53,155 bases of DNA from Patescibacteria group bacterium (GTDB lineage: Bacteria; Patescibacteriota; Microgenomatia; JBGSIU01). The notes under the pieces were generated by a model. The model was not told the DNA's origin, did no database searches, and saw only the letters and a program-made list of their open reading frames with translations. Each line of letters begins with the position of its first letter. Position 1 is the stretch's first letter. The stretch covers positions 1 to 53,155 of the forward strand of contig JBGSIU010000039.1 of assembly GCA_041742375.1 (NCBI GenBank), read 5' to 3'. The translations under genes were made by a program, and so were the position numbers. Positions 15,838 to 40,409 of the stretch are shown piece after piece.

Positions 15838-15943
15838 AAAATCAAAATGCAAAAATAAAAGATTAAAAATACAAATCAAAATTAAAAAATATTCTTAATT
15901 TTTAATCTGTCATTTTGATTTTTGATATTTAATTTTTAATTTA
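15838..15943. repeat. Inverted 7-mer array between murB and murA
   Basis: (AAATCAA)-like arm facing (TTTTGAT)-like arm with short spacer. Confidence 0.85.
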
Positions 15944-26948: not shown

Positions 26949-26990
26949 GCTTCAAAATTTTGATTTTTGATTTTTGATTTTTGATTTTTA
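26942..26990. repeat. 7-mer array (TTTTTGA)4 with short facing arm
   Basis: aattcaagcttcaaaa ttttga tttttga tttttga tttttga ttttta. Confidence 0.8.
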
Positions 26991-26998
26991 CATCACAT

Positions 26999-27649
26999 TT
27001 ACATTGCTCCTTTTCCGACAATCATCGCCCAAGGAGTGAGTAGCATAATATAAATATCATACCAAATACTCCTTTTTCTTGCATACTGCGCATCCATTTG
27101 AATTCTTTTATCAAAATCAACCTCACTTCTGCCTGAAACCTGCCATACTCCGGTTAATCCGGGCTTCACAATCAACATTTCTTTGACAAGCTCATTTGTT
27201 CCTGGAAATTCTTGCTGTTGATGATCAAGTTCATCCGGATAATAGGCTCTCGGTCCCACAAGGCTCATTTCCCCTTTCAAAACATTAATAAGCTGGGGAA
27301 TCTCGTCAAGCGAGTGTTTGCGAATAAATCCACCTATTTTTGTAACTCGGGGATCAGCTTTTAATTTATAGCTGTTTTTTTTATATTCTGCCAAAAGTTT
27401 GGCAAACTTTGGATCACGGCGAAGCAGTTCGTGCGCATTGACGATCATACTTCTAAATTTATACATTTTAAACTGCTTGCCGTCTTTTCCCACTCTTTTT
27501 GGCGTGTCGGCAAAAATCGGCCCCGGAGAATCAAACTTAATCGCACAAGCGATAATAAGCGATAATGGCAAAAAAAATATAATAAGGATTATCGATCCTA
27601 AAATGTCAATCAAGCGTTTGAGAAAAAAGTACAAAAAACCATTGCTCAA
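26999..27649 (-). CDS. Polyprenyl-phosphate phosphoglycosyl transferase (WcaJ/WbaP C-terminal family), TTG start
   Basis: KRLIDI, YKFRSM, DPRVT, SLDEIPQL, MSLVGPR, KPGLTGVWQVSGR. Confidence 0.93.
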   Translation of the reverse strand: MSNGFLYFFLKRLIDILGSIILIIFFLPLSLIIACAIKFDSPGPIFADTPKRVGKDGKQFKMYKFRSMIVNAHELLRRDPKFAKLLAEYKKNSYKLKADPRVTKIGGFIRKHSLDEIPQLINVLKGEMSLVGPRAYYPDELDHQQQEFPGTNELVKEMLIVKPGLTGVWQVSGRSEVDFDKRIQMDAQYARKRSIWYDIYIMLLTPWAMIVGKGAM

Positions 27650-27706
27650 TTGCTCTGTTGCTCAATCCGCCCATGGCGGATGGAGCAATGGAACAATGGA
27701 ACAATT
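27639..27706. repeat. Inverted 8-mer array with central ATCCGCCCATGGCGGAT hairpin
   Basis: Third copy with hairpin; loop differs, stem kept. Confidence 0.9.
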
Positions 27707-28778
27707 ATAGGTACTCTTCTTTTCCCTCACTCTTTAGTTTTTCCACAACTTTTTTAACTTCCTGCGATTTAAATTTGGAGCAAACTAAAAGCGCATCTGG
27801 CGTGTCAACAATCACTAAATTTTCGCATCCGATTGTTGCCACAATTTTATTTTTGTTAAGTTCATAAATTAAGCAGTCGATTGAACCAATGTCATAATTT
27901 TCTCCTTTCACGACTAATGCTCTCCCATTTTCGGCAAGTTCATCCTTTAACACGCTCCACAATCCAACATCGCTAAATCCCAAATCTGCTGGAATCTCAA
28001 CAATTTTTCCACTCTCTAGCTTCTCATAGATTGCAAAATCAACTGACATTTTGGGAATTGTGTTATATTCTTTCGCAATATAATCTTTCTTTCCTTTGTG
28101 AACCAAAATTTCTTGAAGCGTTTGATAGACTTCCGGAGCATGCTGTTTATATAAATTCAACATAAGCGTTGATTTAAAAACCTTAAACCCTGTGTGCCAC
28201 AAAAAGCGATAGTTTCTGACAAATTGTTTAGCTTTTTGCAAATCAGGCTTTTCAATTTGGCGAACAAACTGAAAAACTGAAAAACCATCAACCTCTTTAA
28301 GCATTTTACCCATTTCCATATAGCCTAAGCTTACATTTGGGAATGTTGGCCGCGCATCAATATTAACAATCACATCCTCATTTTGAACAATTTTTTCACC
28401 AGCTTTAAGAGCTCTAAGCAGCTCTTCTTCATTGCGAATATAATGATCTGACCACATGGAGCCGATAATACATCCGGGGAATTTTTCGTGAAGAATGGAA
28501 ACGGCGTATCCAACGCAAGCTAAAGTGTCTCTTTTATCTGGTTCTAAAATAAAATTTTCCTTTGGAATTTCAGGAGCTTCCGATTGAATGTTTTTCGCAT
28601 ACTCCTCTGCAGTCGAAATATAAATATCCTTGACAGGATAACCTTTAATAATTCTTTCAATTGTTTGGCGAAAAAGAGTTTTTTCTCCAATTAACGGTTG
28701 AAATTGCTTTGGGTATTTATCACGGCTCATTGGCCACATCCGCGTACCTGACCCACCACAGAAAATAATGATTTTCAT
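27705..28778 (-). CDS. manC: Mannose-1-phosphate guanylyltransferase-like nucleotidyltransferase
   Basis: GGSGTRMWPMSR..PKQF, EPDKRDT, SDH, EKP, SVDFAIYEK, SDVG, IVDTPDALLV. Confidence 0.85.
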   Translation of the reverse strand: MKIIIFCGGSGTRMWPMSRDKYPKQFQPLIGEKTLFRQTIERIIKGYPVKDIYISTAEEYAKNIQSEAPEIPKENFILEPDKRDTLACVGYAVSILHEKFPGCIIGSMWSDHYIRNEEELLRALKAGEKIVQNEDVIVNIDARPTFPNVSLGYMEMGKMLKEVDGFSVFQFVRQIEKPDLQKAKQFVRNYRFLWHTGFKVFKSTLMLNLYKQHAPEVYQTLQEILVHKGKKDYIAKEYNTIPKMSVDFAIYEKLESGKIVEIPADLGFSDVGLWSVLKDELAENGRALVVKGENYDIGSIDCLIYELNKNKIVATIGCENLVIVDTPDALLVCSKFKSQEVKKVVEKLKSEGKEEYL

Positions 28779-28783
28779 AATTT

Positions 28784-28896
28784 TCAGAACACTCGGAAGA
28801 CTCTAAAACATCAGACAAAATCAGAAATTCAGAAAATCTGATTATCTGACATTTTTGGTTTTCTAAAATTCTGACCTTCCGAGTTTTCCGAGTTTT
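28784..28896. repeat. Inverted 8/9-mer array (TCrGAArAC-like)
   Basis: tcagaacac tcggaagac tctaaaaca tcagacaaaa tcagaaat tcagaaaa facing tctga.. ttccgag ttttccgag. Confidence 0.8.
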
Positions 28897-29996
28897 CAAA
28901 CATCAACAATATTTATTAATTTATTCTTAAATCTCTCCTTGTTAAATCTTTTTAAATTTTCATCAAAATCTATCTTTCGATATTTTTCTTTTTTGAAATC
29001 TAACACAATCTTCTTCAATTCCTCCTTGTCTTTAAACACTTCCCCCGTTTTACCAATTATAAGTGTTTCCTTCGTCCCGCCACGCTTGTTGCATATAACC
29101 GGTTTATAAAAAGCCTGAGCCTCGAGCGATGTTAAGCCAAAATCCTCAATCCCTGGATAAATCAAAGCTACGCATTCATTATACAGCTTACTAAGCTCAT
29201 TATCGCTCACTTGCCCTTTAAATATTATATTATCTTTTGCCTTTTTTTTCAGTCGAGCTTCGTTCACCCCGGTACCAACAATAATCAGAGATTTATCAAG
29301 ATCATTAAAAACGCGAATTGCCATATCGATTTGTTTATATGGAACCAGGCGGGAAACGATCAGAAAGTATTTTTCTGCTTTTTTCCTAATTTCCCCGCGT
29401 TCCCCAATTTCCCTTATTCCTCTCTTTTCTTCAAAACTCACGGGCGGATACACCACAGTGCTTTTTCTTCTATAATACTTCCAAATTCTTAATTTTACTT
29501 CTTCTGAAATTGCAATAAATTTGTCAATCTTTTGTGCCACTTCAAAATCTTTCATCCTCATTAAAGGTGCAAATATTAATAAAAACATTTTTGCAATTTT
29601 ATCAAAAGCTCCAAATCCGGGGGTTTTTAAGTAATCAAAATAACCACTCCATAGATATCTTGTTGGAGTCAGGCAATAATTAATATGAATGTTTTCTGAC
29701 GAAACTTTAATATATTTTGCTTCCGCAGATGAAACACTTAAAACAACATCATATTCGTTAAAATTAAAGCCAGAGAAAGCAGCTGGCATTAAATTCGGTA
29801 AGATTTCGTGCGGTAAGAATTTAAACCATTGTAAAAATGAAGTTTTCACTTGGAATTTCTTTGCCCAAGGCGCTTTTTCTAAATCACAAATAGAGGTGTA
29901 AAGAGGCGCATCTGGCCAAATTTCGTGTAATATTTCCAACACTCGTTCTGCTCCGCCAATTTTATTTACCCTGTCATAAATTATTCCAATCTTCAT
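28896..29996 (-). CDS. GT4 glycosyltransferase (WbaZ-like mannosyltransferase)
   Basis: GGAERVL, YCLTPTRYLW, SRLVPYK, EDFGLTSLEAQA. Confidence 0.9.
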   Translation of the reverse strand: MKIGIIYDRVNKIGGAERVLEILHEIWPDAPLYTSICDLEKAPWAKKFQVKTSFLQWFKFLPHEILPNLMPAAFSGFNFNEYDVVLSVSSAEAKYIKVSSENIHINYCLTPTRYLWSGYFDYLKTPGFGAFDKIAKMFLLIFAPLMRMKDFEVAQKIDKFIAISEEVKLRIWKYYRRKSTVVYPPVSFEEKRGIREIGERGEIRKKAEKYFLIVSRLVPYKQIDMAIRVFNDLDKSLIIVGTGVNEARLKKKAKDNIIFKGQVSDNELSKLYNECVALIYPGIEDFGLTSLEAQAFYKPVICNKRGGTKETLIIGKTGEVFKDKEELKKIVLDFKKEKYRKIDFDENLKRFNKERFKNKLINIVDV

Positions 29997-31156
29997 GTAG
30001 CTCTCTTGCTATCATGATCTAGATCATGATAGCAGACAGTGTTATAAATATTAAGTATTTCAGCGCCCATTTTTTCCCATGAATAGTTAGACGCTTGAAC
30101 CATACCGCTTAAAATCATTTTTTGTCTCAATTCTTCATTTTCTAAAAGCTTCATAATTTTATTTTTCAGGTCAACTGCGTTTTTGGGATTAAAAAAAATA
30201 GCGGCATCACCGTATATTTCATGAAAAACCGGAATGTCTGACGCAACCACTGGACAACCCAAATTCATGGCTTCAACCCCCGGAATACCAAAACCCTCAG
30301 AAAGGGATGGGAAAACAAGACAGGTGGCATTTTGATAGTATTCTCTCAATTTTGCATTTGGAATCAAACCGGTAAAATCAATTTTTGTTTCTAAATTTAG
30401 GCTTTGGATAAACTTAAACAGCTTTTGGTAAAAAAAATCAAATCCCGAAACAATCACCAGCTTAATATTCTTAAACTCTTTTTCTTTAGCTAACTCTTCA
30501 TATGCTAAAACCAACGTCTCTAAATTTTTATGAGGGTGAAGATTACCAACGTATAAAATATATTGTTTTTTTTGTAGAGACGCATCATGATGCGCCTCTA
30601 CATGGGAATCACACTCAAGCTCGCCCCCGTTGTAAACGACAATTATCTTTTCTTCATCTATTCCGTACATTTTCGCTATCTCATTTTTAACCGTGTCGGA
30701 CACTGTTAAGATTTTTTCAGCGCGCTTCACTGCAAACCAAATCGTTAAATAATAAAATAATTTTTTTGCCCAATACAATAATTTCGGCAAGGATGTCGCC
30801 TTTCCTGTTTTAAATTTATTAATTGTAAGGTCGTGAATTGTCACAATAAAACGGCCTAAGTAAAAAATCGGGGCGTTAAAATACGGGAAATGAACGATAT
30901 CAATTTTATTTTTATATAGAATATAGGGGATAATAATCTGTTCTCTCACACTATGCCATTTGGCAGAAGTAGATATGATTTTTAAATTTGCCGGGTATTT
31001 TGTAAAAAGTTTTGTGTCCGTTTTATAAACAATCAAAAAATATTCTTTATCTTTTTCTTGAAAAGCATGTTTTTCTAGTTCTGATAATATTGCTCTGATA
31101 TAACGTCCAACCCCAGTTTGACTGTAAAGCCTGCAATCAATGCAAATTTTTTTCAT
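29993..31156 (-). CDS. GT4 glycosyltransferase
   Basis: GVGRY, TIHDL, HKN, PSLSEGFGIPGVEAM. Confidence 0.92.
   Translation of the reverse strand: MKKICIDCRLYSQTGVGRYIRAILSELEKHAFQEKDKEYFLIVYKTDTKLFTKYPANLKIISTSAKWHSVREQIIIPYILYKNKIDIVHFPYFNAPIFYLGRFIVTIHDLTINKFKTGKATSLPKLLYWAKKLFYYLTIWFAVKRAEKILTVSDTVKNEIAKMYGIDEEKIIVVYNGGELECDSHVEAHHDASLQKKQYILYVGNLHPHKNLETLVLAYEELAKEKEFKNIKLVIVSGFDFFYQKLFKFIQSLNLETKIDFTGLIPNAKLREYYQNATCLVFPSLSEGFGIPGVEAMNLGCPVVASDIPVFHEIYGDAAIFFNPKNAVDLKNKIMKLLENEELRQKMILSGMVQASNYSWEKMGAEILNIYNTVCYHDLDHDSKRAT
30007..30034. repeat. Perfect 28-bp palindrome in GT4 3' end
   Basis: TGCTATCATGATCT|AGATCATGATAGCA. Confidence 0.9.
30573..30602. repeat. GTAG-type REP-like palindrome in frame in GT4
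   Basis: TGTAGAGACGCATCATGATGCGCCTCTACA, one mismatch; encodes VEAHHDASLQ. Confidence 0.8.
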
Positions 31157-31166
31157 TATAAAACGG

Positions 31167-32048
31167 TTAGCCGAATAATTTTAATAAATTTAACACTGTA
31201 AAATTAATAATTCCAGGATATTTTTTCAAATAATGTTTTTCGTAAAAAATCCTCATTGTCAACCAAAAATACTTTTGTGTTTGTTTCTGCAATGTGGAGC
31301 TCTGTGCTTCTCTGCCACTCTGCTTTTTATAATGAATTATCTCAAACTGTGGGTTATACCAAATTGAAAAACCCGATTGCTTAACTCGGTAACACCAGTC
31401 TAAATCTTCGCCGTACATAAAGTAATCTTCATCAAGAAGCCCTACTCGATGAATTACATTGCGGCGAATCATGAAAAACGCCCCGGAAATCGCATCCACT
31501 TCATGAATTAATTTTAAATCCTTATAATACTGGTGATAACCGGAGAATAATTTAATTTTCGGGAAAAGCTTTTCTAAACCAGTAAAATAGCAAAACGCAT
31601 TCCATGGTGTCGGGAACCCCCGATGGCAAGCGGGATCCATTTTCCCATTTTCCAGCAGGATCCTACACGTTACCACTCCCATATTTTTTCCCAAATTTCC
31701 CTTAACTCCCCCGTCTCCAATAAATCTGAGCATTCCCTGAATCGTTCCTTCTTTTACTTCTGTATCCGAATTAAGAAGCAACACGTAATCGCCTCCGGCA
31801 ATTTTTATCCCCTGATTATTCGCCCTCGCAAAACCAAGATTATCTTTATTTTGAATAAATTTTCCATAATTTTGAATTTTAAATTTTGAATTTTGAATTT
31901 TATCAGACCCATTATCAACAACAATAATTTCATATTCTTGGTTTTCTAACTCTTGACTGCAATATTTAAAAAGGCTGCCAAGGCACTTTTCTAACAGTTC
32001 CCGTGTATTGTAATTAACGATGATGATTGAAAGTACACAATAAAGCAT
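31167..32048 (-). CDS. GT2 glycosyltransferase (WbbL-like)
   Basis: LSIIIVNYN, VVDNGS, NLGFARANN, LLNSD, GAFF, FMYGEDLDWC; ATG 32048. Confidence 0.92.
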   Translation of the reverse strand: MLYCVLSIIIVNYNTRELLEKCLGSLFKYCSQELENQEYEIIVVDNGSDKIQNSKFKIQNYGKFIQNKDNLGFARANNQGIKIAGGDYVLLLNSDTEVKEGTIQGMLRFIGDGGVKGNLGKNMGVVTCRILLENGKMDPACHRGFPTPWNAFCYFTGLEKLFPKIKLFSGYHQYYKDLKLIHEVDAISGAFFMIRRNVIHRVGLLDEDYFMYGEDLDWCYRVKQSGFSIWYNPQFEIIHYKKQSGREAQSSTLQKQTQKYFWLTMRIFYEKHYLKKYPGIINFTVLNLLKLFG

Positions 32049-32169
32049 TATATCCAAAAACTGGCAAATGTCCGCATATTGTCATCTCTTCTTGATTGAC
32101 GATGACCTTATTAACACATTGCCAAAGAATTTCTTCCTTCGTAAAAATTATATCAGTTTTTCGAGCCAT
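32014..32169 (-). pseudogene. Putative C-terminal remnant of a site-specific recombinase
   Basis: 51-aa ORF KEEILWQCVNKVIVNQEEMTICGHLPV reading across the island boundary; resemblance to serine recombinase tails is from memory only. Confidence 0.4.
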
Positions 32170-32269
32170 TAATTCGCAGCTCAGCATTTTACTTTTTGCC
32201 GTTTTTTATACGCCTCTATAACGTGTTATGAAGAATCTGTGCCATAAGTTTCCGTAAAATTGTCCGATT

Positions 32270-33205
32270 TCATTTAAGAAAATATATATAGGCTATAAAA
32301 AGACAAAGCAGAAATACTCCCATATATTTTGGAATATTTTTTCCTTTGCTTACGATAACCACTGCAGTGAATAACAATGTAGCTATTGTAAGCATAAATA
32401 TTTCATAAACAGTCATTATTTTCCAGGAGGAAAAAAATAACAAGATTCCGCCGATGAGCGCTAAATTGTAAATATTGCTTCCGATAATGTTTCCAATCGT
32501 GATTTTTTCTTCATGATTTTTTTGGCTAAATATTGTTGTCATCAGTTCGGGTATTGAGGTTGCAATCGCCGTGATAGATAAACCAAGTAAAGTTGTCGAC
32601 AAACCCAAAAGCGAGGATAATTTCTCAATCGAAGAAACGGTGACAATACCGCCGAGAACAATACCAACAAGGACAAAGAACAACTTGCCTATGTCAATCC
32701 GTTGGAAACTCGCTGTTCCCATTCTCTTATATGATTGGCCATCTTCGTGGTTTCTTCCATTAATTCCCCAAACATATTGTTCTAGTGTAATAAGTATTGC
32801 AACAAATAATAAGATAATGCCTCCCGTCCTGCTTGATAACCCGGAAAAATATAAGAACAAGAATAATCCCGTTATTCCAACCATTATGTACGCATTGCGT
32901 TGGGTTTTTGTGGTACCTACTCGAAGTTTTCCCGTCAAAATGCCTACCGCAAAAACCAAAAACACATTTACAATGTTTGAACCAATAATATTTCCCATCG
33001 CCAAACCTGCATCATTGTTGGCTATTGCAACAACGGAAACAACAAATTCCGGAAGAGATGTTCCGATAGACACAACCGTAAGTCCGATAACTAACGAAGA
33101 CATTTTTAAAGATGTTGAGATGCGTTCTGCCAATTTTATAAAAAATTGTGTTGACAGAAGAAGCAATATTATGCCAAAAGTAAACAAGAGAAGAGCTGTT
33201 AACAT
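32270..33205 (-). CDS. Ca2+/Na+ antiporter (YrbG/CaCA family)
   Basis: Two alpha repeats GTSLPE...GNIIGSN and ATSIPE...GNIIGSN; about 10 TM. Confidence 0.92.
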   Translation of the reverse strand: MLTALLLFTFGIILLLLSTQFFIKLAERISTSLKMSSLVIGLTVVSIGTSLPEFVVSVVAIANNDAGLAMGNIIGSNIVNVFLVFAVGILTGKLRVGTTKTQRNAYIMVGITGLFLFLYFSGLSSRTGGIILLFVAILITLEQYVWGINGRNHEDGQSYKRMGTASFQRIDIGKLFFVLVGIVLGGIVTVSSIEKLSSLLGLSTTLLGLSITAIATSIPELMTTIFSQKNHEEKITIGNIIGSNIYNLALIGGILLFFSSWKIMTVYEIFMLTIATLLFTAVVIVSKGKNIPKYMGVFLLCLFIAYIYFLK

Positions 33206-33365
33206 AATATATAGTATAATATATATTGTTAGAACATACACTCCTTTGAAAAAATATCTTCGTATTGCAACGGGGCATGTCTTCTAGTTCGTACTATTCT
33301 ATCGCTTTCAATTTTAGCTTAGAAATGATATAATTCCCTTGTTAATATGAGCTGTCCTGAAGATA

Positions 33366-34514
33366 ATGAAAATCCTAACCAATGTCCGTTTTTACCACCT
33401 TGCGGGAATTTCCCAGGCTGTACAGTCTTTTTTGTCATCCTTCGAGAGACAAGACCGGGATAAAATCATTGGCGTTAATCTTACCGACACCTCAGAAATA
33501 AATTATTCTCGCATAAAGAAAAATAGTAATAATTGCCATATTATCTCCAAACAAATCCAATTTCCAAATATGAATCAAATCATTCAAAATTGCCGCACAA
33601 CGAGCGACTTGGAGAAAAATTATAAAGAAATAATTGATACATATAGAGCTGTCATGAAAAATGAAAAACCAGATGCCGTCTTGATTAACGGCACCTATTT
33701 TTTGCCGTGGTGCCTTTACCAAGCAAGCCTTTCATTTAGAACCAAAAGAATTTTGCATTATCACGGTATCCTCACTAAAGAAATCTGCCATTGGAAAAAA
33801 GAAAATCGGTTTATTTTTGAACAAATGGAGAAAACTTTTGATGATAAAAAACTGTTTTATATCTTTCCTTCTCTTTTTGCTAAAAAAACCGTGGAGGACG
33901 AGGTTTTTAAACATAAAATTAAATCTAACTTTGCAGTTATGCCAAACCCCATTTTTTTCAAACCAATTTTACGCGACGCAAAAAGAGAGATTAAACGAAG
34001 AGATAAAAGGAATGTTGGTTCGGTAACGAGATGGACAGCGATTAAAAATCCGCTTTTTTTAAGAAAGATTGCTAAGCATGATTTAAAGCAGGGTGATAAA
34101 TTCGATTTTCATGTGATCACCGATTTATCCGACAAATCACGCTTAAGAAAGAAGCTCAACTGTCTTTTAAATTTTCAGTCCTCAATGAATCATGCGGCTT
34201 TAAAAAAATACTATGATAGTATGGATTTAATCATTAGTCCTTCGCATTTTGAAACATACGGCAATGTCGCTCAGGAGGCACTTGTTCATGGAACACCAGC
34301 ATTAGTAAGCTCAAACATGGGAGTGGCAGAAACTTTTAATAAATTCGGGCTTGACCGCTATGTGATTGATTTTAATTCCACGTCCAATGTGTACAAACAA
34401 ATTAAAGAAATATCTCACGAAAAAATTGATTATGGATTGCGCCGTCTGATGGCCGCTGAACTTTCTCCTGATATAATTCACGGAAAGATATTGTCTACTA
34501 TTAAATCCTTTTAA
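33366..34514 (+). CDS. Divergent GT4 glycosyltransferase (island cargo)
   Basis: PSHFETYGNVAQEA EX7E motif. Confidence 0.85.
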   Translation: MKILTNVRFYHLAGISQAVQSFLSSFERQDRDKIIGVNLTDTSEINYSRIKKNSNNCHIISKQIQFPNMNQIIQNCRTTSDLEKNYKEIIDTYRAVMKNEKPDAVLINGTYFLPWCLYQASLSFRTKRILHYHGILTKEICHWKKENRFIFEQMEKTFDDKKLFYIFPSLFAKKTVEDEVFKHKIKSNFAVMPNPIFFKPILRDAKREIKRRDKRNVGSVTRWTAIKNPLFLRKIAKHDLKQGDKFDFHVITDLSDKSRLRKKLNCLLNFQSSMNHAALKKYYDSMDLIISPSHFETYGNVAQEALVHGTPALVSSNMGVAETFNKFGLDRYVIDFNSTSNVYKQIKEISHEKIDYGLRRLMAAELSPDIIHGKILSTIKSF

Positions 34515-35719
34515 CTGTGAAACCGGTTTATGTCCACCTCCTTACGATTGAAAGAGTTATAGATATCATTTAGTTTTGCGGCAATGCGCCGCCAATTATA
34601 TTTCTCTTCGATAATTTTCTTTGCGTTATTAACAACCTTGTCACCGTAATTTTTATCTTTTAGAATTTTTGCAGTCAGTTCTGCTAATTCTTCGGGAGTT
34701 TCGCCAATAAATGCGTGTTTCTCGTGGGCAACATTTAAGCCTTCAACTCCAAGAGAGGTTGAAACAACCGGAGTGCCGCTTGCCATCGCCTCAAGGATTT
34801 TATATCTTGTTCCGCCTCCAGACAACATTGGGGCAAGAAGAACGTCGGAGGCGGCAAATGCCAGTTTAATGTCATCAATTTCTTCCACTTGAACATTGTC
34901 GGATTGCATTTGAAGAATCTCAGATGAAGGATTTTTCCCAACAATCCAAAGATTGGCTTGTGGGCATTTTTCTTTAATTAGGGGCCAAACCTTATCACGT
35001 AAAAAAATAACCGCTTCCTTATTTTGAATCCATTTGAAATTGCCAACAAAAAGAACGGTTTTTTTTGGCGACATTTCTTTGACGATTCGAAAAAATTTCT
35101 CCGTGTCAACACCGTTAGGAACCACATCAATATTTAATTTAGGGATCTCATTATGCATTGTTTCTTTATCGGCCTCACTCATCGTGACCACTTTATCCGC
35201 CACCCGCCAATAATGTTTTTCCCACTTTTTAATTTTTTTAACATCAATCGCGAGTAATTTTTTTAGCGGCCAAAATTTAATGCTCGACACAAAACTTTGA
35301 TAAACCTTATATTCTATTGTTTGTTCAACTAAAAGGCGCGGAATCGTTATTTCCGGGATATTGCTCATAACATAAAATGTTTCCGCGTGAATTAAATCGA
35401 ATTTTTCTTTTTTCAAAATTGACGAAATTGTTTCCTGGACTTGGTTTGAAAGATACATGGTCATTAAAGCCGGATATGAGGTGAAGCCTGCTTTAAGAAT
35501 ATTTGTTGGAGAAAACGGCTTCAGTTTTTTAAAAGTATAAATTCCGCGACAAAACTTTTTTAATTCGGGAATATATTCTTTTTCGCTATCTTCCCGAATA
35601 AAGGATATTAAAGTGATATCGTGCTGATCTTTTAAATTTTTGAGAAGATTATATGTTCGGATTTGCCCGCCGGAAACAAGGGGAAACGGTAAGTAGGGAG
35701 TAATCATCAGCACTCGCAC
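34511..35719 (-). CDS. GT4 glycosyltransferase, GTG start
   Basis: PFPLVSGGQIR, VPNGVD, GGGTRYKILEAMASG. Confidence 0.92.
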   Translation of the reverse strand: MRVLMITPYLPFPLVSGGQIRTYNLLKNLKDQHDITLISFIREDSEKEYIPELKKFCRGIYTFKKLKPFSPTNILKAGFTSYPALMTMYLSNQVQETISSILKKEKFDLIHAETFYVMSNIPEITIPRLLVEQTIEYKVYQSFVSSIKFWPLKKLLAIDVKKIKKWEKHYWRVADKVVTMSEADKETMHNEIPKLNIDVVPNGVDTEKFFRIVKEMSPKKTVLFVGNFKWIQNKEAVIFLRDKVWPLIKEKCPQANLWIVGKNPSSEILQMQSDNVQVEEIDDIKLAFAASDVLLAPMLSGGGTRYKILEAMASGTPVVSTSLGVEGLNVAHEKHAFIGETPEELAELTAKILKDKNYGDKVVNNAKKIIEEKYNWRRIAAKLNDIYNSFNRKEVDINRFHS

Positions 35720-35727
35720 GGCTCGTT

Positions 35728-35821
35728 AAATTCAAAATTCAAAGTTCAAAATTAAAAATTATGGTATTTTTTTTAAATTTTTATTTGTGTTTTTGATTTT
35801 TGATATTTGATTTTTGATTTA
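35728..35821. repeat. Inverted 7-mer array
   Basis: aaattca aaattca aagttca aaattaa facing ttttgat-type arm; right arm is exact reverse complement of 37230-37272. Confidence 0.9.
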
Positions 35822-37243
35822 TATTTGGCATTTCAGCTCCACAATCACAAATTTCTCATTTTTATATATCACATTGCATTCCTCCATTATGCGCTTAGTT
35901 GGCTCATCGAAATTTGTTGACACATAATGCGTTGCTCCCAGTTTAATTTGTGGCATGACATTACTCGTATTATAAAGCAGTGGCCAACCGGCACGGTTCG
36001 TTTGGTATAAAAATGCCGTATCTCCGCCATAAGGCGCAATCACTTTCGCGTCTTTTGGCGTGATTTTATCAACTCTGCGGCCGGCTTCAACAATTTCTGG
36101 ATGATTAACGTTAAAAAAGCCTTGAACTTCATACCAAGAAAGGGCAAAGGATAAAAAAACGAAAAAGGCTGTAATTGTCAGGCGAACATATTTTTCCCAA
36201 CCGTTACCGTTTTCCCTAATAATTTTTTCTAATCCCAATCCGCACAAAATTGCCACTGTCGGCAAAATTAAAATCTGGTAATAATCGTGCCTCACATTTC
36301 CTGTTGCAAAAATAATTAAATATAAGAGGGATGACAACCCAAGTATTTCAAAGATATAATTCTTATTTTTTTTGAATAATATTCCGATTGTCAAAAAAAT
36401 AATTCCCCAATATCCCAAAATTAATTTCCCAATTCGCTCGCCAAAGAGCCATCTAAACCAGGCGCCTTTCAAGCGAATCCCATCGCCGTTTAACAGCCAA
36501 GAAGAGGCAGGAATCCCTTCGGGAAAGCGCTGAATATAAAAACGCCACAATAACAGAGGTAAAAAAGAAAAACTAAAAGCGAAAAGCGAGATGGAAAATG
36601 ATAAATTTTTATTTTTTACGTTGTGAAATATTATGTAGATAATTGGTAACCCGAAGAAGATTGCCGTAGGCTTAATTAATAATGCAATCGCGAAAAAAAT
36701 TGTCGAAATAATTAAATTTTTACGTGACATAAAATACAGGCTTCCCATGGCAAACATCACTGCGGTTGGGTCTGGTAATAAAACACGGCCGTAAAAAATG
36801 AAAAACGGCAAAAAACCATAAAAAAGCGCGGCAAAAATTCCAGACAATTCATCTGCATATTTTTTCGTGAACAGATAAATAAAAAGCATCGTTAGAATTG
36901 AAGAAAAAATTGTGATCAATCTTCCCCATATTTCAAGTTTAAACGCCGGAAAACTTAGGTAAGACAATGCCACAATTGCGTTGTAAATTGGAAATTCCAC
37001 CATCCGTAATCCTTGAGGATTTTCTTTGCCTGAAGCTACATTTGATAAATCATCATACTGAGGTTTTAGAAGATTAATGCCGTTTTTAACAAAATTCCGC
37101 GATACGGCAATTGTATCAGCCTGGCGCCAAGAATGCCAATCGGCCACAGGGTTATCAATTTTGTAGAGGCGGACTATAAATGCGCCCAAAAATAATATTA
37201 TTAAGAATAATTTTTTAATGATCAGAACCAAATCAAAAATCAA
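35819..37243 (-). CDS. GT-C (ArnT/PMT-like) integral membrane glycosyltransferase; no ATG near 5' end
   Basis: DWHSWRQADT, EFPIYN, multi-TM, RHDYYQ. Confidence 0.85.
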   Translation of the reverse strand: MIFDLVLIIKKLFLIILFLGAFIVRLYKIDNPVADWHSWRQADTIAVSRNFVKNGINLLKPQYDDLSNVASGKENPQGLRMVEFPIYNAIVALSYLSFPAFKLEIWGRLITIFSSILTMLFIYLFTKKYADELSGIFAALFYGFLPFFIFYGRVLLPDPTAVMFAMGSLYFMSRKNLIISTIFFAIALLIKPTAIFFGLPIIYIIFHNVKNKNLSFSISLFAFSFSFLPLLLWRFYIQRFPEGIPASSWLLNGDGIRLKGAWFRWLFGERIGKLILGYWGIIFLTIGILFKKNKNYIFEILGLSSLLYLIIFATGNVRHDYYQILILPTVAILCGLGLEKIIRENGNGWEKYVRLTITAFFVFLSFALSWYEVQGFFNVNHPEIVEAGRRVDKITPKDAKVIAPYGGDTAFLYQTNRAGWPLLYNTSNVMPQIKLGATHYVSTNFDEPTKRIMEECNVIYKNEKFVIVELKCQI

Positions 37244-37350
37244 ATATCAAAAATCAAAAACACAAATAAAAAACGAAAAATACTCATTTCTCATCATTTT
37301 TAATTTTTAATCTGTATTTTTGAATTTTGATTTTCGAGTTTTGATTTTTA
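37230..37350. repeat. Inverted 7-mer array
   Basis: (AAATCAA)4-cacaaataaaaa ... tttttaatctgta-(TTTTGAw)4. Confidence 0.9.
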
Positions 37351-38946
37351 TTAGTCTTTACCAAGCGCTATTAATTTAAGCGTTATTCCCGTCATTGCCC
37401 AATAAATAAACGCCACTTTGGATGCCTCAAAAACATCAATATAGCTGGCGTTTACTAATAATCCAAAGGTTCCGGCAATATATGCGGAAAGAAATGCAAA
37501 TTTAAAATCAATTTCTAATTTCTTAAGCTTCCTTCCCACCAAATACAAGCAGTAGAAAATAATTCCGAAAAATGATAAGAGTCCTAAAAGTCCTGTTTCG
37601 CCCAGCGCGCGCAAATAATCATTATCAGTTGATTCAGCCTCGGTAAACTGAGACACGCTTTCTTTTGTTAAAGTTGAATAACCTGTTCCAAGCAAAGGGT
37701 TAGTTTTAAAAGCTTTTAAGGCACGCGGCCAAAGCGCATCCAACCGAATTGCTGCCGATAAACCAACATTAAATGCTGCAGGAGAATAACCCCGTGGAAC
37801 CGCTGAATATGACGCAATTTTCTTCCCAAATTTATCAGTCGTATACGTGATAATTACTCTTTCCGGAATATCTTTTTCAACATCGGGTGGCAATTCTTTA
37901 CTCTCCGACGTTCCCGATGCCCCTTTATTAACAACCTTCGGTGGAACATCGCTTTCAACCGCAATAAGTGAAAGTTCCTGTTCAAGCGTTAAATGTTTTG
38001 GAACGTCTATTTTTACAGGCTGTTTAGCAAAACTAATAAGCGCCCATATTTGCTTTACTCCCATAATCTGTGCAAACCTTTCGTTAAGCTCGCCGAAAGA
38101 CAGCATAATAAAAAACGATAAATATATCATAAAAACGCTTCTCGTAATGATCCAAACCAAATTCCTTTTTTTAACTGACCAAATAATAATAAGAATAATC
38201 AACGCAACAATATATGAAATAAAAGAAGTTCTGGACGCGGTTAGAACCAATAGAAAAATTGAAGAAATGAAAATTATTAGAGAAAAGGCTTTTAGGATTA
38301 TATTTTTAATAAAAAGAAAGATTGAACCTGAGAAGACCAACGCCATCACAAGATATGCTGCCAAATCATAGTGCCCGCCAAAAGTCGAAACAACGCGTGC
38401 ATGTTCAGTTAAAACTAACCGCCATCCCTTTGAAAATTCGCGATTCATGGTGGAATACACTGGCCACTGAAGATATTTTTGACCAAAACCATAGATATTA
38501 ATCCCGAAAAGTGCGACAAAAAACACAATCAAAGCAATTTTAATTTGAGTTTTATTCTTAATTGATAAATAAAAAATATAAAACACGGAAAAATATTCAA
38601 TTCTGCGCATCCAATGAATCAACATTTTTCCCGAATGAAGGGGTTCCCAAAAAACTGTTTTTGTGATAATGAGCGCTGAAAGCATTGAGAAGAACCCAAT
38701 AGCTAGGTAATAAATGATCGGTCTATCAAGTGGAGTCCTGGCATTTTTAAATTTTGTTTTTAGATTTGTGAAAAAAATCAAAAGAACGGCAAACAGAATT
38801 AAAAAATCTTCAATACGCACGCGCACAATATAGCCTGGAATTAAATCAAAAAGAGGAAGCTTTGGATACAGAGGAACAAACAAAAGCAAAAAACAGCTGT
38901 AAATAAAGGTCAAATTGTCTCTAAACTTTAGAGTAAGCTTTTTCAT
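37351..38946 (-). CDS. O-antigen ligase/polymerase-like membrane protein
   Basis: RVVSTFGG, LTASRTS, NPLLGTG, TDNDYLRALGETG. Confidence 0.8.
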   Translation of the reverse strand: MKKLTLKFRDNLTFIYSCFLLLFVPLYPKLPLFDLIPGYIVRVRIEDFLILFAVLLIFFTNLKTKFKNARTPLDRPIIYYLAIGFFSMLSALIITKTVFWEPLHSGKMLIHWMRRIEYFSVFYIFYLSIKNKTQIKIALIVFFVALFGINIYGFGQKYLQWPVYSTMNREFSKGWRLVLTEHARVVSTFGGHYDLAAYLVMALVFSGSIFLFIKNIILKAFSLIIFISSIFLLVLTASRTSFISYIVALIILIIIWSVKKRNLVWIITRSVFMIYLSFFIMLSFGELNERFAQIMGVKQIWALISFAKQPVKIDVPKHLTLEQELSLIAVESDVPPKVVNKGASGTSESKELPPDVEKDIPERVIITYTTDKFGKKIASYSAVPRGYSPAAFNVGLSAAIRLDALWPRALKAFKTNPLLGTGYSTLTKESVSQFTEAESTDNDYLRALGETGLLGLLSFFGIIFYCLYLVGRKLKKLEIDFKFAFLSAYIAGTFGLLVNASYIDVFEASKVAFIYWAMTGITLKLIALGKD

Positions 38947-39808
38947 AATTTTTCAATCGTGAATTGCCAATCAAGCTAAAAATAATTATTCTTAAGATAA
39001 TCGAGATTCTAATTATCGCATTTAAAATATAGTTTTTCCATTTTACTTCATGTTTTTGAAAAAAATATTTAAGCGCTCTATATTCTCCGATAATTGCGCT
39101 GTCTGAACTCTCAGCGCTTCCCATGCCATAATGAACAATCGATGGCGTTGAAAAATATCCAATCTTATATCCTTTTTCGCGTACTCTGCGGCAAAATTCC
39201 ATCTCTTCGCCATACATAAATATTTTCTCATCAAGCAATCCGACTTTTTCAAACACATCGCGCTTAGCCAAAAAGAAAGCGCCAATAACCCAATCTACTT
39301 GATGATTATTGTTAAAAAAACTTAAGTTCGAAATCTGATACGGTTTAACAATATCTCGAATAATAGGTAAATCGTCAAGAAAAAATGCCCAAAAAAACAA
39401 ATTTAATAAAGTTGGGCCAAACCCGGCGGCTTGTTGATTTCTACCATTCGGGCTTTGAATATTAATTGTTAAAATGTCTGCCTTTTTAAGATAATTGATT
39501 GCTTTTTCCAGCGTTTTATCAAAAATAATTTTGGTATCGGAATTTAACAACAAAATTGATTTTCCTTTTGCCGCTTTTATTCCTTGATTGTTAGCTTTCG
39601 CATATCCAACATTTCTAGAATTTTGAATAATTCTGACGCGTTGAAATTTTCTTTTAATATTCTCTACGCTATTGTCTGTTGAATTATTATCAATCAGAAT
39701 TATCTCAAAATTAATTTTATGGGTATGATTGAATATTGATTCTAAACAATCAATCGTCAAATTTTTTGTGTTGTAATTAACAATAACAACGCTTAAATCA
39801 ATTCCCAT
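38921..39808 (-). CDS. GT2 glycosyltransferase
   Basis: DLSVVIVNYN, DNNSTD, LLNSD, FMYGEE; ATG 39808. Confidence 0.92.
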   Translation of the reverse strand: MGIDLSVVIVNYNTKNLTIDCLESIFNHTHKINFEIILIDNNSTDNSVENIKRKFQRVRIIQNSRNVGYAKANNQGIKAAKGKSILLLNSDTKIIFDKTLEKAINYLKKADILTINIQSPNGRNQQAAGFGPTLLNLFFWAFFLDDLPIIRDIVKPYQISNLSFFNNNHQVDWVIGAFFLAKRDVFEKVGLLDEKIFMYGEEMEFCRRVREKGYKIGYFSTPSIVHYGMGSAESSDSAIIGEYRALKYFFQKHEVKWKNYILNAIIRISIILRIIIFSLIGNSRLKNYEKAYSKV

Positions 39809-39815
39809 ATGAAAT

Positions 39816-40409
39816 TTACTGAAAAAGCTTAAATCGCCCGAGTTTATAATGAAGGTCTTTAGCTCTTCGCTCGCCAATCTCGCGAGCGGGGACACCTCCG
39901 TAGATCTTATATTCGGGAATATCGCGGCTGACAACTGCTCCAGCTGCAACAGCCGCTCCTTGGCCAATTTTTACGCCGGGAAGAATTATTGCGCGCGGAC
40001 CGATAAAAACATGATCCTCAATTATAACCGGCGCTGTTATGGGTTTAAAATCAACAGAGTTAATATCATGCTCGCTATTATAAATTAAAACTTGTGAGGC
40101 AATGTCAACATTGTTGCCAATTAATAATTTATCGCGGCCGTCAAGAAAACAATGATCTCCAATAATTGTTCCGTCCCCTATCTTGATTTTTTTTGGATCA
40201 TAAAACCTTACCCAACAGTGAATTGTTGAACTGCGCCCGATTTTTATTCCCGCCAGCCTGTAAAAAAAACGGCGCACGACATGAAGAGGAATACTCCCGA
40301 TAAAATTAAGAAGCATTAACTCGAAGTCCAAAAAATAGCTAAGTAATCTCGTCCAACTTTTTTTTATCACTTCACTGTTCGTTAACTGTTTTCCGTTTTT
40401 ATCAACCAT
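39816..40409 (-). CDS. Hexapeptide-repeat sugar O-acetyltransferase
   Basis: IKIGDGTIIG, VIIEDHVFIG, ILPGVKIG, GGVPA. Confidence 0.92.
   Translation of the reverse strand: MVDKNGKQLTNSEVIKKSWTRLLSYFLDFELMLLNFIGSIPLHVVRRFFYRLAGIKIGRSSTIHCWVRFYDPKKIKIGDGTIIGDHCFLDGRDKLLIGNNVDIASQVLIYNSEHDINSVDFKPITAPVIIEDHVFIGPRAIILPGVKIGQGAAVAAGAVVSRDIPEYKIYGGVPAREIGERRAKDLHYKLGRFKLFQ

What the first reader, a model, noticed from the sequence alone, without database searches (positions are those of the whole stretch)
32025..34554. Cryptic 2.5 kb island inserted in a GT4/GT2 gene overlap, repairing both genes
CTTTCAATC (minus) occurs at both ends. Joining the copies gives the GT4 tail LNDIYNSFNHHR* and, in the overlapping frame from ATG 34569, the GT2 start MISITLSIIIVNYNT, a normal coupled junction. 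The island supplies a new GT4 tail and a new GT2 start (MLYCVLSIII). Its cargo (Ca/Na antiporter, oppositely oriented GT4) lacks the host repeat inserts. Inference: site-specific integration targeting the conserved LSI motif of a glycosyltransferase gene.
Basis: partly seen in the sequence, partly recalled or inferred. Interest (0 to 1): 0.75.

Follow-up and report, generated by a model that had tools for sequence, protein, structure and literature searches.

The report
Gene pair inserted into glycosyltransferase overlap
In a tiny uncultured (Microgenomates-type) bacterium, two unrelated genes were spliced exactly into the spot where two neighbouring sugar-transferase genes overlap in its relatives, leaving a 9-letter duplicate as a scar; it is a neat, datable one-off rearrangement and not a new kind of mobile element.

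Summary
CTTTCAATC occurs twice in the window, at 34546-34554 and 32025-32033 (minus strand). Joining the copies gives a GT4 tail ...NDIYNSFNHHR* and an overlapping GT2 start ...LSIIIVNYNT. The segment between (2512 nt: a Na+/Ca2+ exchanger and an oppositely oriented GT4 gene) is a true lineage-specific insertion. In 148 of 170 related loci GT4a is followed directly by GT2. None carries either cargo gene. Six of the eight closest GT4a homologues (66-76% identity) end ...IYESF[N/D/H]xxR*. Ten of ten closest GT2 homologues start M[N/S]LSII..., which is the predicted empty junction. The island holds no recombinase, has no terminal inverted repeats, has no second copy, and recurs at no other GT2 5' end. 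Its two genes are not linked anywhere else. I read it as a one-off illegitimate insertion with a 9-bp duplication. One complication is unresolved. The first codons of "island" DNA (RKEV, AAGGAGGTG) resemble the canonical GT4a tail of the window's sister lineage. The repeat may therefore be two homologous copies of the LSI codons, brought together by recombination between junction alleles, rather than a target-site duplication. Interest is modest.

The parts
34511..35719 (-). GT4a, family-4 glycosyltransferase. This is the longest ORF; the collection's gene call for this window starts 4 codons later, by the 398-aa protein P0001. Homology to relatives ends at Tyr387.
   Evidence: Pfam Glyco_trans_1_4, Glycos_transf_1 and Glyco_transf_4. 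Homologues at 66-76% identity.
34555..34569 (-). Vestige of the old GT2 5' end inside the GT4a tail codons (NDIYN). In the closest relatives the GT2 start ATG lies in the Tyr-Glu codons here. The window reads ATA at that place and keeps an in-frame ATG at 34569.
34546..34554 (-). Left copy of CTTTCAATC. It encodes S-F-N of the GT4a tail and is the former L-S-I codons of GT2.
34511..34545 (-). New GT4a tail (R)KEVDINRFHS* read from inserted DNA. It contains AAGGAGGTG (34535-34543) and the palindrome AAACCGGTTT (34520-34529). Its stop overlaps the stop of the convergent GT4isl gene (TTAA).
   Evidence: Resemblance to canonical GT4a tails has an empirical p of 0.043.
33366..34514 (+). Cargo gene 1 (GT4isl): GT4-type glycosyltransferase on the strand opposite to the cluster.
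   Evidence: Pfam Glycos_transf_1 and GT4-conflict. Orthologues at 38-45% in 6 of 300 class genomes. Best non-self protein 54%.
33242..33365 (.). Divergent intergenic region between the two cargo genes. It presumably holds promoters for both; this is inferred. It contains an inverted 8-mer CTTTCAAT at 33305-33312 (+).
32270..33241 (-). Cargo gene 2 (NaCa): Na+/Ca2+ exchanger family membrane protein, on the same strand as the cluster. The likely true start is near Met13.
   Evidence: Pfam PF01699, two repeats. Homologues in 40 of 300 class genomes, best 65%; similarity stops at the ORF ends.
32049..32269 (-). Spacer of inserted DNA downstream of NaCa. It holds a 57-codon ORF (32014-32187) without homologues and a promoter-like site (32047-32074). 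No remnant of GT4a or of a recombinase was found.
32034..32048 (-). New GT2 head: ATG plus four codons (MLYCV) supplied by inserted DNA, with no Shine-Dalgarno sequence upstream. The closest relatives have MN or MS here.
32025..32033 (-). Right copy of CTTTCAATC: the L-S-I codons, which are the first conserved codons of GT2.
31167..32024 (-). Rest of GT2 (family-2 glycosyltransferase), intact.
   Evidence: Pfam Glycos_transf_2. Homologues at 60-69% over 97% of the length.

Best explanation
This is a single, lineage-specific insertion of about 2.5 kb into a junction of a glycosylation gene cluster. The cluster (GT2b, O-antigen-ligase-like, PMT_2, GT4a, GT2, GT4b, GT4c, nucleotidyltransferase) is conserved across the whole class of this Patescibacteria/Microgenomates genome. 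In the closest relatives GT4a and GT2 overlap by 29 nt: the GT4a tail ...IYESFNHHR* is read from the same bases as GT2 MNLSIIIVN. In the window, 2512 nt now sit inside that overlap. They carry a Na+/Ca2+ exchanger gene and an oppositely oriented GT4 gene. Nine bases of the overlap (CTTTCAATC) are present on both sides. Each flanking gene keeps one copy. GT4a keeps its S-F-N codons and reads on for 11 codons into the insert, to a stop that overlaps the stop of the convergent cargo gene. GT2 keeps its L-S-I codons and takes a new ATG plus four codons from the insert. I infer that the event was illegitimate (recombinase-independent) recombination that duplicated 9 bp of target. It could have worked by fill-in of a staggered break or by a single crossover of a circularised fragment at a 9-bp microhomology. 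I do not think it was the movement of a self-mobile, site-specific element. Consequences, all inferred: translational coupling of GT4a and GT2 is lost. Transcription of the upstream half now runs into a convergent gene. GT2, GT4b, GT4c and the nucleotidyltransferase are probably transcribed from the exchanger's promoter or from a promoter-like site in the spacer.
For: Shown: GT4a is followed directly by GT2 in 8 of 10 loci from class genomes, 70 of 80 metagenome loci and 70 of 80 species-representative loci. The rest are contig ends (13) or lack GT2 (9). None of the 170 loci has a hit to either cargo gene. Of the eight full-length closest GT4a homologues (66-76%), six end IYESF[N/D/H]xxR*. All ten closest GT2 homologues start M[N/S]LSII... 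(P0128 as called carries three extra residues in front). Each of the six tails is codon-compatible with an overlapping MNLSIIIV in the +1 frame; a canonical tail used as control is not. L019 holds the same 20-nt junction. Homology to relatives stops at Tyr387 on the left and starts at the L-S-I codons on the right. Against a mobile element: only Na_Ca_ex and GT4 domains are found in the island, it has no terminal inverted repeats, and it has no second copy of any part in the genome. The genome has 0 DDE_Tnp_1 matches. Its one IS256-like gene has unrelated ends. Its four Phage_integrase genes lie on other contigs. Orthologues of the two cargo genes sit in unrelated contexts and are never adjacent. 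Unrelated genes such as enolase, IspG and NUDIX interrupt the neighbouring GT4b/GT4c junction in 13 of 29 related loci, so such interruptions of this cluster are common.
Against: The first island-encoded codons (R-K-E-V-D; AAGGAGGTG, only 9 copies in the genome) look like the canonical GT4a tail (IY[KQR]EVG) of most relatives. In the tree built without the tail, the window's GT4a is sister to P0003, whose tail is canonical (REVGGEK) (support 96/89; both halves of the gene agree). It does not fall inside the clade of six with the deep overlap. The simple model therefore needs either a second origin of the deep overlap or exchange of junction alleles. That the canonical P0008 sits beside or inside the deep-overlap clade shows that such switches happen. 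The resemblance itself is weak statistically (10 of 12 bases; 4.3% of random genome positions do as well). A 9-mer repeat alone is not rare. No DNA of the close relatives could be read, so their junctions are inferred from proteins. A 286-aa gene call of the cargo GT4, 100% identical to the window's, is listed on a 2211-nt contig; whether that contig spans the left joint was not examined. The donor and the enzyme are unknown.
Confidence: 0.58

Rival explanations
1. Recombination between two junction alleles (homology-facilitated illegitimate recombination). The two cargo genes were first inserted, harmlessly, between the stop of GT4a and the start of GT2 in a related lineage with the canonical junction (tail IY-RKEVD...*, own GT2 start). 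That whole block was later joined to a deep-overlap allele. On the left the join used the 3-5-nt microhomology ATC(GT) at the end of the 9-mer. On the right it used ordinary homology inside GT2. On this reading the 9-mer 'repeat' is two homologous copies of the conserved L-S-I codons, not a target-site duplication.
For: It explains the canonical-looking, in-frame RKEV/AAGGAGGTG right after the left 9-mer. It explains the sister relation to the canonical-tail lineage P0003. It explains why the repeat coincides exactly with the first conserved GT2 codons; CTTTCAAT(C) is a frequent codon choice for L-S-I in relatives. Tail type does not follow the gene tree (P0008), so junction alleles seem to be exchanged or remade. 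Duplicated L-S-I segments occur at this junction in L071, L069 and L043. Joins at 3-10 bp next to a homologous anchor are documented (PMC6382021, passages read).
Against: It needs two rare events and a donor lineage that was not found. The best non-self homologue of the cargo GT4 is 54% identical, and it does not share a contig length with any listed GT4a or GT2 relative. The GT4a sequence right up to IY is P0003-like, whereas the recipient in this model should be of the deep-overlap type. The resemblance to canonical tails has p about 0.04. No relative has a GT2 head like MLYCV.
Confidence: 0.24
2. One reading: a cryptic site-specific integrative element that targets the CTTTCAATC / L-S-I motif at the 5' end of GT2 genes, with the 9-mer as att core.
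For: There are perfect 9-bp direct repeats exactly at both borders. The empty site is confirmed in relatives. Four tyrosine-recombinase genes exist elsewhere in the genome and could in principle act in trans.
Against: The island has no recombinase gene, no inverted repeats or hairpin ends, and no second copy. None of the 148 related loci with a readable GT4a/GT2 junction has an insertion larger than about 200 nt there. The cargo genes are unlinked elsewhere. The other GT2 paralogues of the genome were not inspected one by one, but no island sequence recurs.
Confidence: 0.05
3. The left 9-mer is a chance match or a small local duplication. The true borders lie 17-26 nt further in, so that the canonical tail and its Shine-Dalgarno sequence are native and the ATG at 32048 is the native GT2 start. 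The join would then have only a 4-7-nt microhomology (GTGGACATAA at 34528-34537 versus TTGGATATAA at 32048-32057).
For: AAGGAGGTG is usually a real ribosome-binding site where it occurs in this genome. Joined to the ATG at 32048 it would stand 7 nt upstream of it. The imperfect 10-mer repeat is read directly from the sequence.
Against: The left flank from IY through S-F-N matches the deep-overlap tail of six close relatives residue for residue, and those tails are imposed by the overlapping GT2 codons; that is hard to get by chance. Among the 85 relatives tabulated, where a canonical [EQK][VL]G motif is present it follows the Tyr directly; none has five residues in between. One register of this join would fuse GT4a and GT2 in frame.
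Confidence: 0.08
4. Assembly chimera: the 2.5-kb piece was joined in wrongly by the assembler.
For: Only one public run holds the stretch, and it may be the source sample.
Against: A 9-bp repeat is far below assembler word sizes. Both flanking genes have changed ends that fit a real, selected insertion. Composition matches the genome.
Confidence: 0.02

Closest known systems
Short-homology (microhomology) illegitimate recombination, including homology-facilitated illegitimate recombination in transformable bacteria (de Vries & Wackernagel 2002; Meier & Wackernagel 2003; cited from passages of PMC6382021)
   Same: Foreign or displaced DNA is joined at a few identical bases (3-10 bp in that paper's account). 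No element-encoded recombinase is involved, the events are one-off, and survivors are those that keep genes intact.
   Different: Here the same 9 bases flank the insert on both sides. That fits a single crossover of a circle, or a filled-in staggered break, better than two independent joints. The donor, the anchor homology and natural competence of this organism are unknown.
Target-site duplications of DDE transposons (9 bp for IS4/Tn5/Tn10-type and 8-9 bp for IS256-type elements; recalled, not from a call)
   Same: A perfect 9-bp direct repeat of target sequence sits at both borders of the inserted DNA.
   Different: There is no transposase, no terminal inverted repeats and no other copies. 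The genome has no DDE_Tnp_1 gene, and the ends of its one IS256-like element are unrelated.
Integrative islands with a short att core (tyrosine or serine recombinase elements)
   Same: Direct repeats equal to the target core lie at both ends, and joining them restores the empty site.
   Different: No integrase lies in or beside the island. The target is a protein-gene overlap, not a tRNA or another usual site. The site is occupied in none of the relatives examined.
Variable gene content in polysaccharide / O-antigen-type gene clusters
   Same: A conserved glycosyltransferase cluster is interrupted at gene junctions by lineage-specific genes. 13 of 29 related loci carry unrelated genes at the GT4b/GT4c junction.
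   Different: Here the interruption falls inside a coding overlap, and its two borders can be read to the base.

Membership tests
DDE transposon / insertion sequence | Element-encoded transposase | tested here: not met
   Pfam finds only Na_Ca_ex and GT4 domains in the island ORFs and none in the 57-aa ORF. A GT4a profile search of the six frames of the spacers found no GT4a remnant; no recombinase profile was run on them.
DDE transposon / insertion sequence | Terminal inverted repeats next to the duplication | tested here: not met
   None of the 25 longest inverted pairs shown (of 126 found) pairs the two island ends. There is no likeness to the 21-nt ends of the genome's IS256-like element beyond a 10-mer that occurs 13 times in the genome.
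DDE transposon / insertion sequence | Target-site duplication of fixed length | tested here: met
   A perfect 9-bp direct repeat lies at both borders.
DDE transposon / insertion sequence | Several copies in the genome or in relatives | tested here: not met
   blastn of the island against the whole genome gives only the self hit plus short chance matches. No cargo hit was found in 170 related loci.
Site-specific integrative element (tyrosine/serine recombinase) | Integrase gene inside or next to the element | tested here: not met
   The four Phage_integrase matches of the genome lie on contigs C57, C14, C41 and C46.
Site-specific integrative element (tyrosine/serine recombinase) | Identical core at both ends that restores an attB found empty in relatives | tested here: met
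Site-specific integrative element (tyrosine/serine recombinase) | Recurrent occupation of the same site in other genomes | tested here: not met
   0 of 148 loci with a readable GT4a/GT2 junction have inserted genes there.
Microhomology-mediated illegitimate recombination / HFIR | Short identity (about 3-10 bp or a little more) at the novel joint | tested here: met
   9 bp are shared by both joints; alternatively ATC(GT) at the left joint.
Microhomology-mediated illegitimate recombination / HFIR | Identified donor sequence, and for HFIR a homologous anchor on one side | not testable with these tools
   No donor was found. The closest cargo homologues are 54% (GT4isl) and 65% (NaCa) identical, with unrelated flanks.
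Na+/Ca2+ exchanger family (Pfam PF01699) | Two Na_Ca_ex repeats in a polytopic membrane protein | tested here: met
   E 4.7e-45, two matched stretches.
GT4 glycosyltransferases (GT4a and cargo GT4) | Glycos_transf_1 / Glyco_trans_1_4 C-terminal domain with a GT4 N-terminal domain | tested here: met
   For the cargo gene the N-terminal domain is below the cut-off (20.1 bits versus 28.5).
GT2 glycosyltransferases | Glycos_transf_2 domain starting at the conserved LSIIIVNYN strand | tested here: met
   E 2.1e-22, residues 10-151.

The most novel reading that the evidence does not exclude
The GT4a/GT2 junction of this Microgenomates glycosylation cluster is a recombination site. Alternative junction alleles (deep overlap versus canonical tail) and cargo genes are exchanged there between lineages at the conserved CTTTCAATC / L-S-I codons, by a trans-acting or host-encoded activity that leaves no gene in the cargo. 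This would be a cassette-like insertion site without integron or integrase hallmarks.
Probability: 0.06. Interest if true: 0.7.

Novelty: new member of a known kind. Interest (0 to 1): 0.3.

Why it matters
Gene order in the small, dense genomes of candidate-phyla-radiation bacteria changes often, but the molecular joints are rarely visible. Here the event can be read to the base. An insertion fell into a coding overlap and both genes survived, because nine bases were duplicated and the insert happened to supply a stop and a start. The case gives a concrete example, and a testable footprint, for how conserved glycosylation clusters in these organisms acquire unrelated genes. It does not reveal a new mobile element or a new enzyme. 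The exchanger and the extra GT4 are ordinary members of their families.

Tried and rejected
(1) Looking for the empty junction in reads.

(2) Close relatives of the cargo GT4 in species-representative genomes. The scan found none.

(3) DNA of the 66-81% relatives. It is in neither the metagenome scan (best 55%) nor the genome scan (best 54%). Their junctions were therefore inferred from proteins. The cluster look-up for P0011, P0003 and P0241 could not be made.

(4) A decayed copy of the GT4a 3' end or of the junction in the island's spacers. A profile search found nothing. A DNA profile of the junction aligns the left flank only to Tyr387 and the right flank only from the L-S-I codons, so it cannot separate the rival reconstructions.

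(5) Direct repeats at the borders of the 12 examined insertions at the GT4b/GT4c junction of relatives. None exceeded the cross-locus null.

(6) A link to the genome's IS256-like element. Rejected.

(7) The CCTCC motif downstream of the closest class orthologue of the cargo GT4 (L028). It lies in a coding sequence and is irrelevant.

(8) An ancestral home of the exchanger gene. Flanking genes of its G032 homologue map about 750 nt apart on contig C19 of this genome. With only one distant relative, I did not build on this.

(9) Mosaic structure of GT4a. Both halves place the window beside P0003.

(10) Compositional foreignness. None was found.

(11) Rfam. Nothing relevant was found in 27000-40000.


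Full report
**1. What is in the window**

The window is contig C39 of a 1.13-Mb, 65-contig genome, 97% complete. Its nearest held genomes are only 'same class'. Homologous proteins are named Candidatus Gottesmanbacteria, Beckwithbacteria or Microgenomates by their sources, so this is a Patescibacteria (CPR) genome.

On the minus strand lies a glycosylation cluster:
- GT2b, 38921-39967
- an O-antigen-ligase-like membrane protein, 37351-38946
- PMT_2, 35819-37243
- GT4a, 34511-35719
- GT2, 31167-32057
- GT4b, 29993-31156
- GT4c, 28896-29996
- a nucleotidyltransferase, 27705-28778

Between GT4a and GT2 lie two genes. One is a GT4-type gene on the plus strand (33366-34514, 'GT4isl'). The other is a Na+/Ca2+ exchanger on the minus strand (32270-33241, 'NaCa').

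**2. The observation**

CTTTCAATC occurs twice in the window, at 34546-34554 and 32025-32033, both on the minus strand. As a bare repeat this means little. 1.28 copies are expected and 38 of 100 shuffles reach two. Unrelated pairs of junction windows share a 9-mer in roughly one case in ten.

Its position is what counts:
- The left copy begins 4 nt after the last conserved GT4a codon (Tyr387).
- The right copy is the first conserved codon triplet of GT2 (L-S-I).
- Joining the copies gives GT4a ...AKLNDIYNSFNHHR* and, from ATG 34569, GT2 MISITLSIIIVNYNT, with a 35-nt overlap.

**3. It is an insertion**

The cluster order is conserved far beyond this genome.
- GT4a is followed at once by GT2 in 8 of 10 loci taken from class genomes. 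One lacks GT2 and one is a contig end.
- The same holds in 70 of 80 metagenome loci. Nine are contig ends and one lacks GT2.
- It also holds in 70 of 80 loci from species-representative genomes. Seven lack GT2 and three are contig ends.
- The three sets overlap in part and their members are kin, so these are not 170 independent cases.
- No locus has a hit to NaCa or GT4isl.
- In all 8 inspected class loci the two genes overlap by 4-29 nt or more.

The insertion is therefore derived and, so far, unique to this lineage.

**4. The empty site in close relatives**

The large protein collection holds closer relatives than any DNA collection I could scan.

Eight full-length GT4a homologues have 66-76% identity.
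- Six end ...IYESFNHYR*, ESFDHHR*, ESFNNYR*, ESFNHNR*, ESFDNNR* or ESFHNHR*.
- Two (P0003, P0008) end with the tail that is usual in the class (REVGGEK*, TKVGAKE*).

Of the ten closest GT2 homologues (60-69%), nine carry MNLSII... (P0128 as called has three extra residues, MRF, in front) and one starts MSLSII.... Three of them share their contig length with a deep-overlap GT4a (4040, 5488 and 1,028,424 nt).

A script shows that each of the six tails can be encoded together with MNLSIIIV in the +1 frame, with the start ATG inside the Tyr-Glu codons. Only nine DNA solutions exist for each. The canonical tail used as control allows only a trivial 4-nt overlap.

In these relatives the tail S-F-N-H-H-R-stop is therefore nothing but the L-S-I-I-I-V-N codons of GT2 read one base off. 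A distant relative (L019) even has the same 20 nt.

One correction is needed. The ancestral GT2 start was most likely the ATG in the Tyr-Glu codons. The window reads ATA there (Asn in place of Glu). This fits a start codon that became free to decay once GT2 was moved away.

**5. What the insert is not**

- Its ORFs carry only Na_Ca_ex and GT4 domains. The 57-codon ORF in the spacer has no family and no homologue in any locus or in the genome.
- No inverted repeats pair its ends.
- No part of it recurs in the genome.
- The genome has no DDE_Tnp_1 gene.
- It has four Phage_integrase genes, all on other contigs.
- It has one IS256-like gene, whose 21-nt ends are unrelated to the island ends.
- GT4isl has orthologues (38-45%) in 6 of 300 class genomes, each in a different context and never near NaCa, GT4a or GT2. 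Its best non-self protein is 54% identical.
- NaCa has homologues in 40 of 300 class genomes, best 65%. DNA similarity ends at the ORF borders and the neighbours are unrelated.
- Composition is ordinary. The tetranucleotide distance is at the 57th percentile of 801 genome windows, and GC is 0.351 against 0.376 +/- 0.027.
- The lack of 'host repeats' in the cargo carries no weight, because those repeats are sparse.
- In relatives the next junction of the same cluster (GT4b/GT4c) is interrupted in 13 of 29 loci. The inserted genes are quite unrelated: enolase, IspG, NUDIX with NDK and a methyltransferase, an AAA ATPase, an inositol monophosphatase and others.

Interruptions of this cluster by stray genes are thus common. 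This one is special only in falling inside a coding overlap and in showing its joints.

**6. How it most likely happened**

Shown:
- 2512 nt are present between two copies of 9 nt that exist once in the relatives' junction.
- Both flanking genes are full length against relatives.
- GT4a now reads 11 new codons, to a stop that overlaps the stop of the convergent GT4isl.
- GT2 now starts at an ATG, four codons before L-S-I, with no ribosome-binding site.

Inferred: a single illegitimate recombination that duplicated nine target bases. It could have been fill-in of a staggered break around a captured fragment, or a single crossover of a circularised fragment at a 9-bp microhomology. It would have survived because the insert happened to give an in-frame stop and an in-frame start.

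Transcription of GT2 and the genes behind it from the exchanger's promoter, or from the promoter-like site at 32047-32074, is a guess.

**7. The complication**

Right after the left 9-mer the 'island' reads (C)GT AAG GAG GTG GAC, that is R-K-E-V-D. Most relatives end GT4a with IY-[KQR]-E-V-G. Two distant ones even carry the same ten bases. AAGGAGGTG occurs only nine times in the genome, mostly before start codons.

In a tree made without the tail, the window's GT4a is sister to P0003, the lineage with tail REVGGEK (96/89). The six deep-overlap proteins form their own clade (99/92). Both halves of the gene agree.

The left flank thus carries, in tandem, a deep-overlap remnant (IY-N-SFN) and something like a canonical tail. 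Two readings remain.
- (a) The resemblance is chance. An empirical test gives 4.3% of random genome positions an equal match to some relative's tail. The deep overlap then arose or was acquired in this lineage too. Tail type does not follow the tree in any case (P0008).
- (b) The cargo first sat behind a canonical tail in a related lineage. The whole block was then joined to a deep-overlap allele at the ATC at the end of the 9-mer, with ordinary homology in GT2 on the other side. This is homology-facilitated illegitimate recombination, documented with 3-10-bp joints (PMC6382021, passages). The repeat is then two homologous copies of the L-S-I codons and not a target duplication.

I put (a) at about 0.58 and (b) at about 0.24.

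A third reconstruction, with the borders 17-26 nt further in, fits the ribosome-binding site. It cannot explain why the tail matches the deep-overlap relatives (about 0.08).

A site-specific element gets about 0.05, and an assembly artefact about 0.02.

**8. Comparison with what is known**

The footprint equals a transposon's 9-bp target duplication, or the core repeats of an integrative island. The defining parts of both are absent (see the membership table): a recombinase, defined ends and recurrence. It works like short-homology illegitimate recombination. Membership there cannot be proven without the donor.

**9. Limits**

- No DNA of the close relatives could be read.
- The lists of homologues are cut at 120 rows.
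- The counts of loci include kin and some duplicates between collections.

**10. Verdict**

The mobile-element interpretation is not supported. This is an ordinary class of event, a new instance of a known kind, with an unusually legible scar and an unresolved twist in its history.

Noticed in passing
window 30573-30602 (inside GT4b, 29993-31156, minus): A 30-nt near-perfect palindrome sits in frame in GT4b, in a stretch of about 20 residues (window GT4b residues 178-198, around ...HVEAHHDASLQ...) that falls between the two aligned parts in relative L014. Copies of 82-96% identity lie on contigs C41, C42, C57 and C10. This is a small palindromic repeat that can sit inside coding sequence.
   Followed up: partly
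window 35728-35826, 37230-37327, 15839-15943, 8190-8470, 26951-26990; inside GT2 at 31851-31900: A low-complexity inverted repeat, (TCAAAAA)n ... (TTTTGAA)n, hairpin-like and mostly intergenic. It gives 113 blastn hits in the genome. Stretches of 30-50 nt at 85-97% identity occur in many other genomes of the class. One arm lies in frame in GT2 (KIQNSKFKIQN), and close GT2 relatives have a similar SSKFKVQSS stretch.
   Followed up: partly
related loci L044, L048, L050, L051, L058, L065, L073, L083, L087, L088, L094, L095 (GT4b/GT4c junction): In 13 of 29 related loci the GT4b/GT4c junction carries 0.7-3.2 kb of unrelated genes (enolase, IspG/GcpE, NUDIX with NDK and a methyltransferase, AAA_14/DUF4143, ACPS with PHP, inositol monophosphatase, PMT and others). 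No border repeats exceed the null.
   Followed up: partly
related loci L071, L069, L043 (GT4a/GT2 junction): These junctions are 69-85 nt long and carry a second, diverged copy of the GT2 L-S-I start segment upstream of the real one. Together with the deep-overlap and canonical tails, which do not follow the GT4a tree, this shows that the junction is remade repeatedly.
   Followed up: partly
window 33305-33312 (+), between the two cargo genes: An inverted 8-mer CTTTCAAT, that is 8 of the 9 bases of the border repeat on the other strand, lies about 55 nt upstream of the cargo GT4 start. The chance of such an 8-mer in this 124-nt spacer is about 1%. No role was found.
   Followed up: no
window 34520-34529: A perfect 10-nt palindrome AAACCGGTTT lies 6 nt after the cargo GT4 stop, inside the new GT4a tail codons.
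   Followed up: no
genome contig C31:8026-9054 (not in the window): The only transposase-like gene found: an IS256-type (Transposase_mut, 39.7 bits) ORF of 343 codons, flanked by 21-nt inverted repeats (20 of 21 identical) at C31:7947 and C31:9080. It is single copy.
   Followed up: partly
window 38921-39967 (GT2b): The longest ORF of GT2b has about 55 extra N-terminal codons before the conserved LSVVIVNYN. Relatives align only from residue 52-58, so the real start is probably the internal Met (..HMGID-LSV..).
   Followed up: no
genome contig C19:4379-7370 (not in the window): The two genes that flank the exchanger homologue in genome G032 have their homologues only about 750 nt apart here. 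This could be a former home of the exchanger gene, but it rests on one distant relative only.
   Followed up: no
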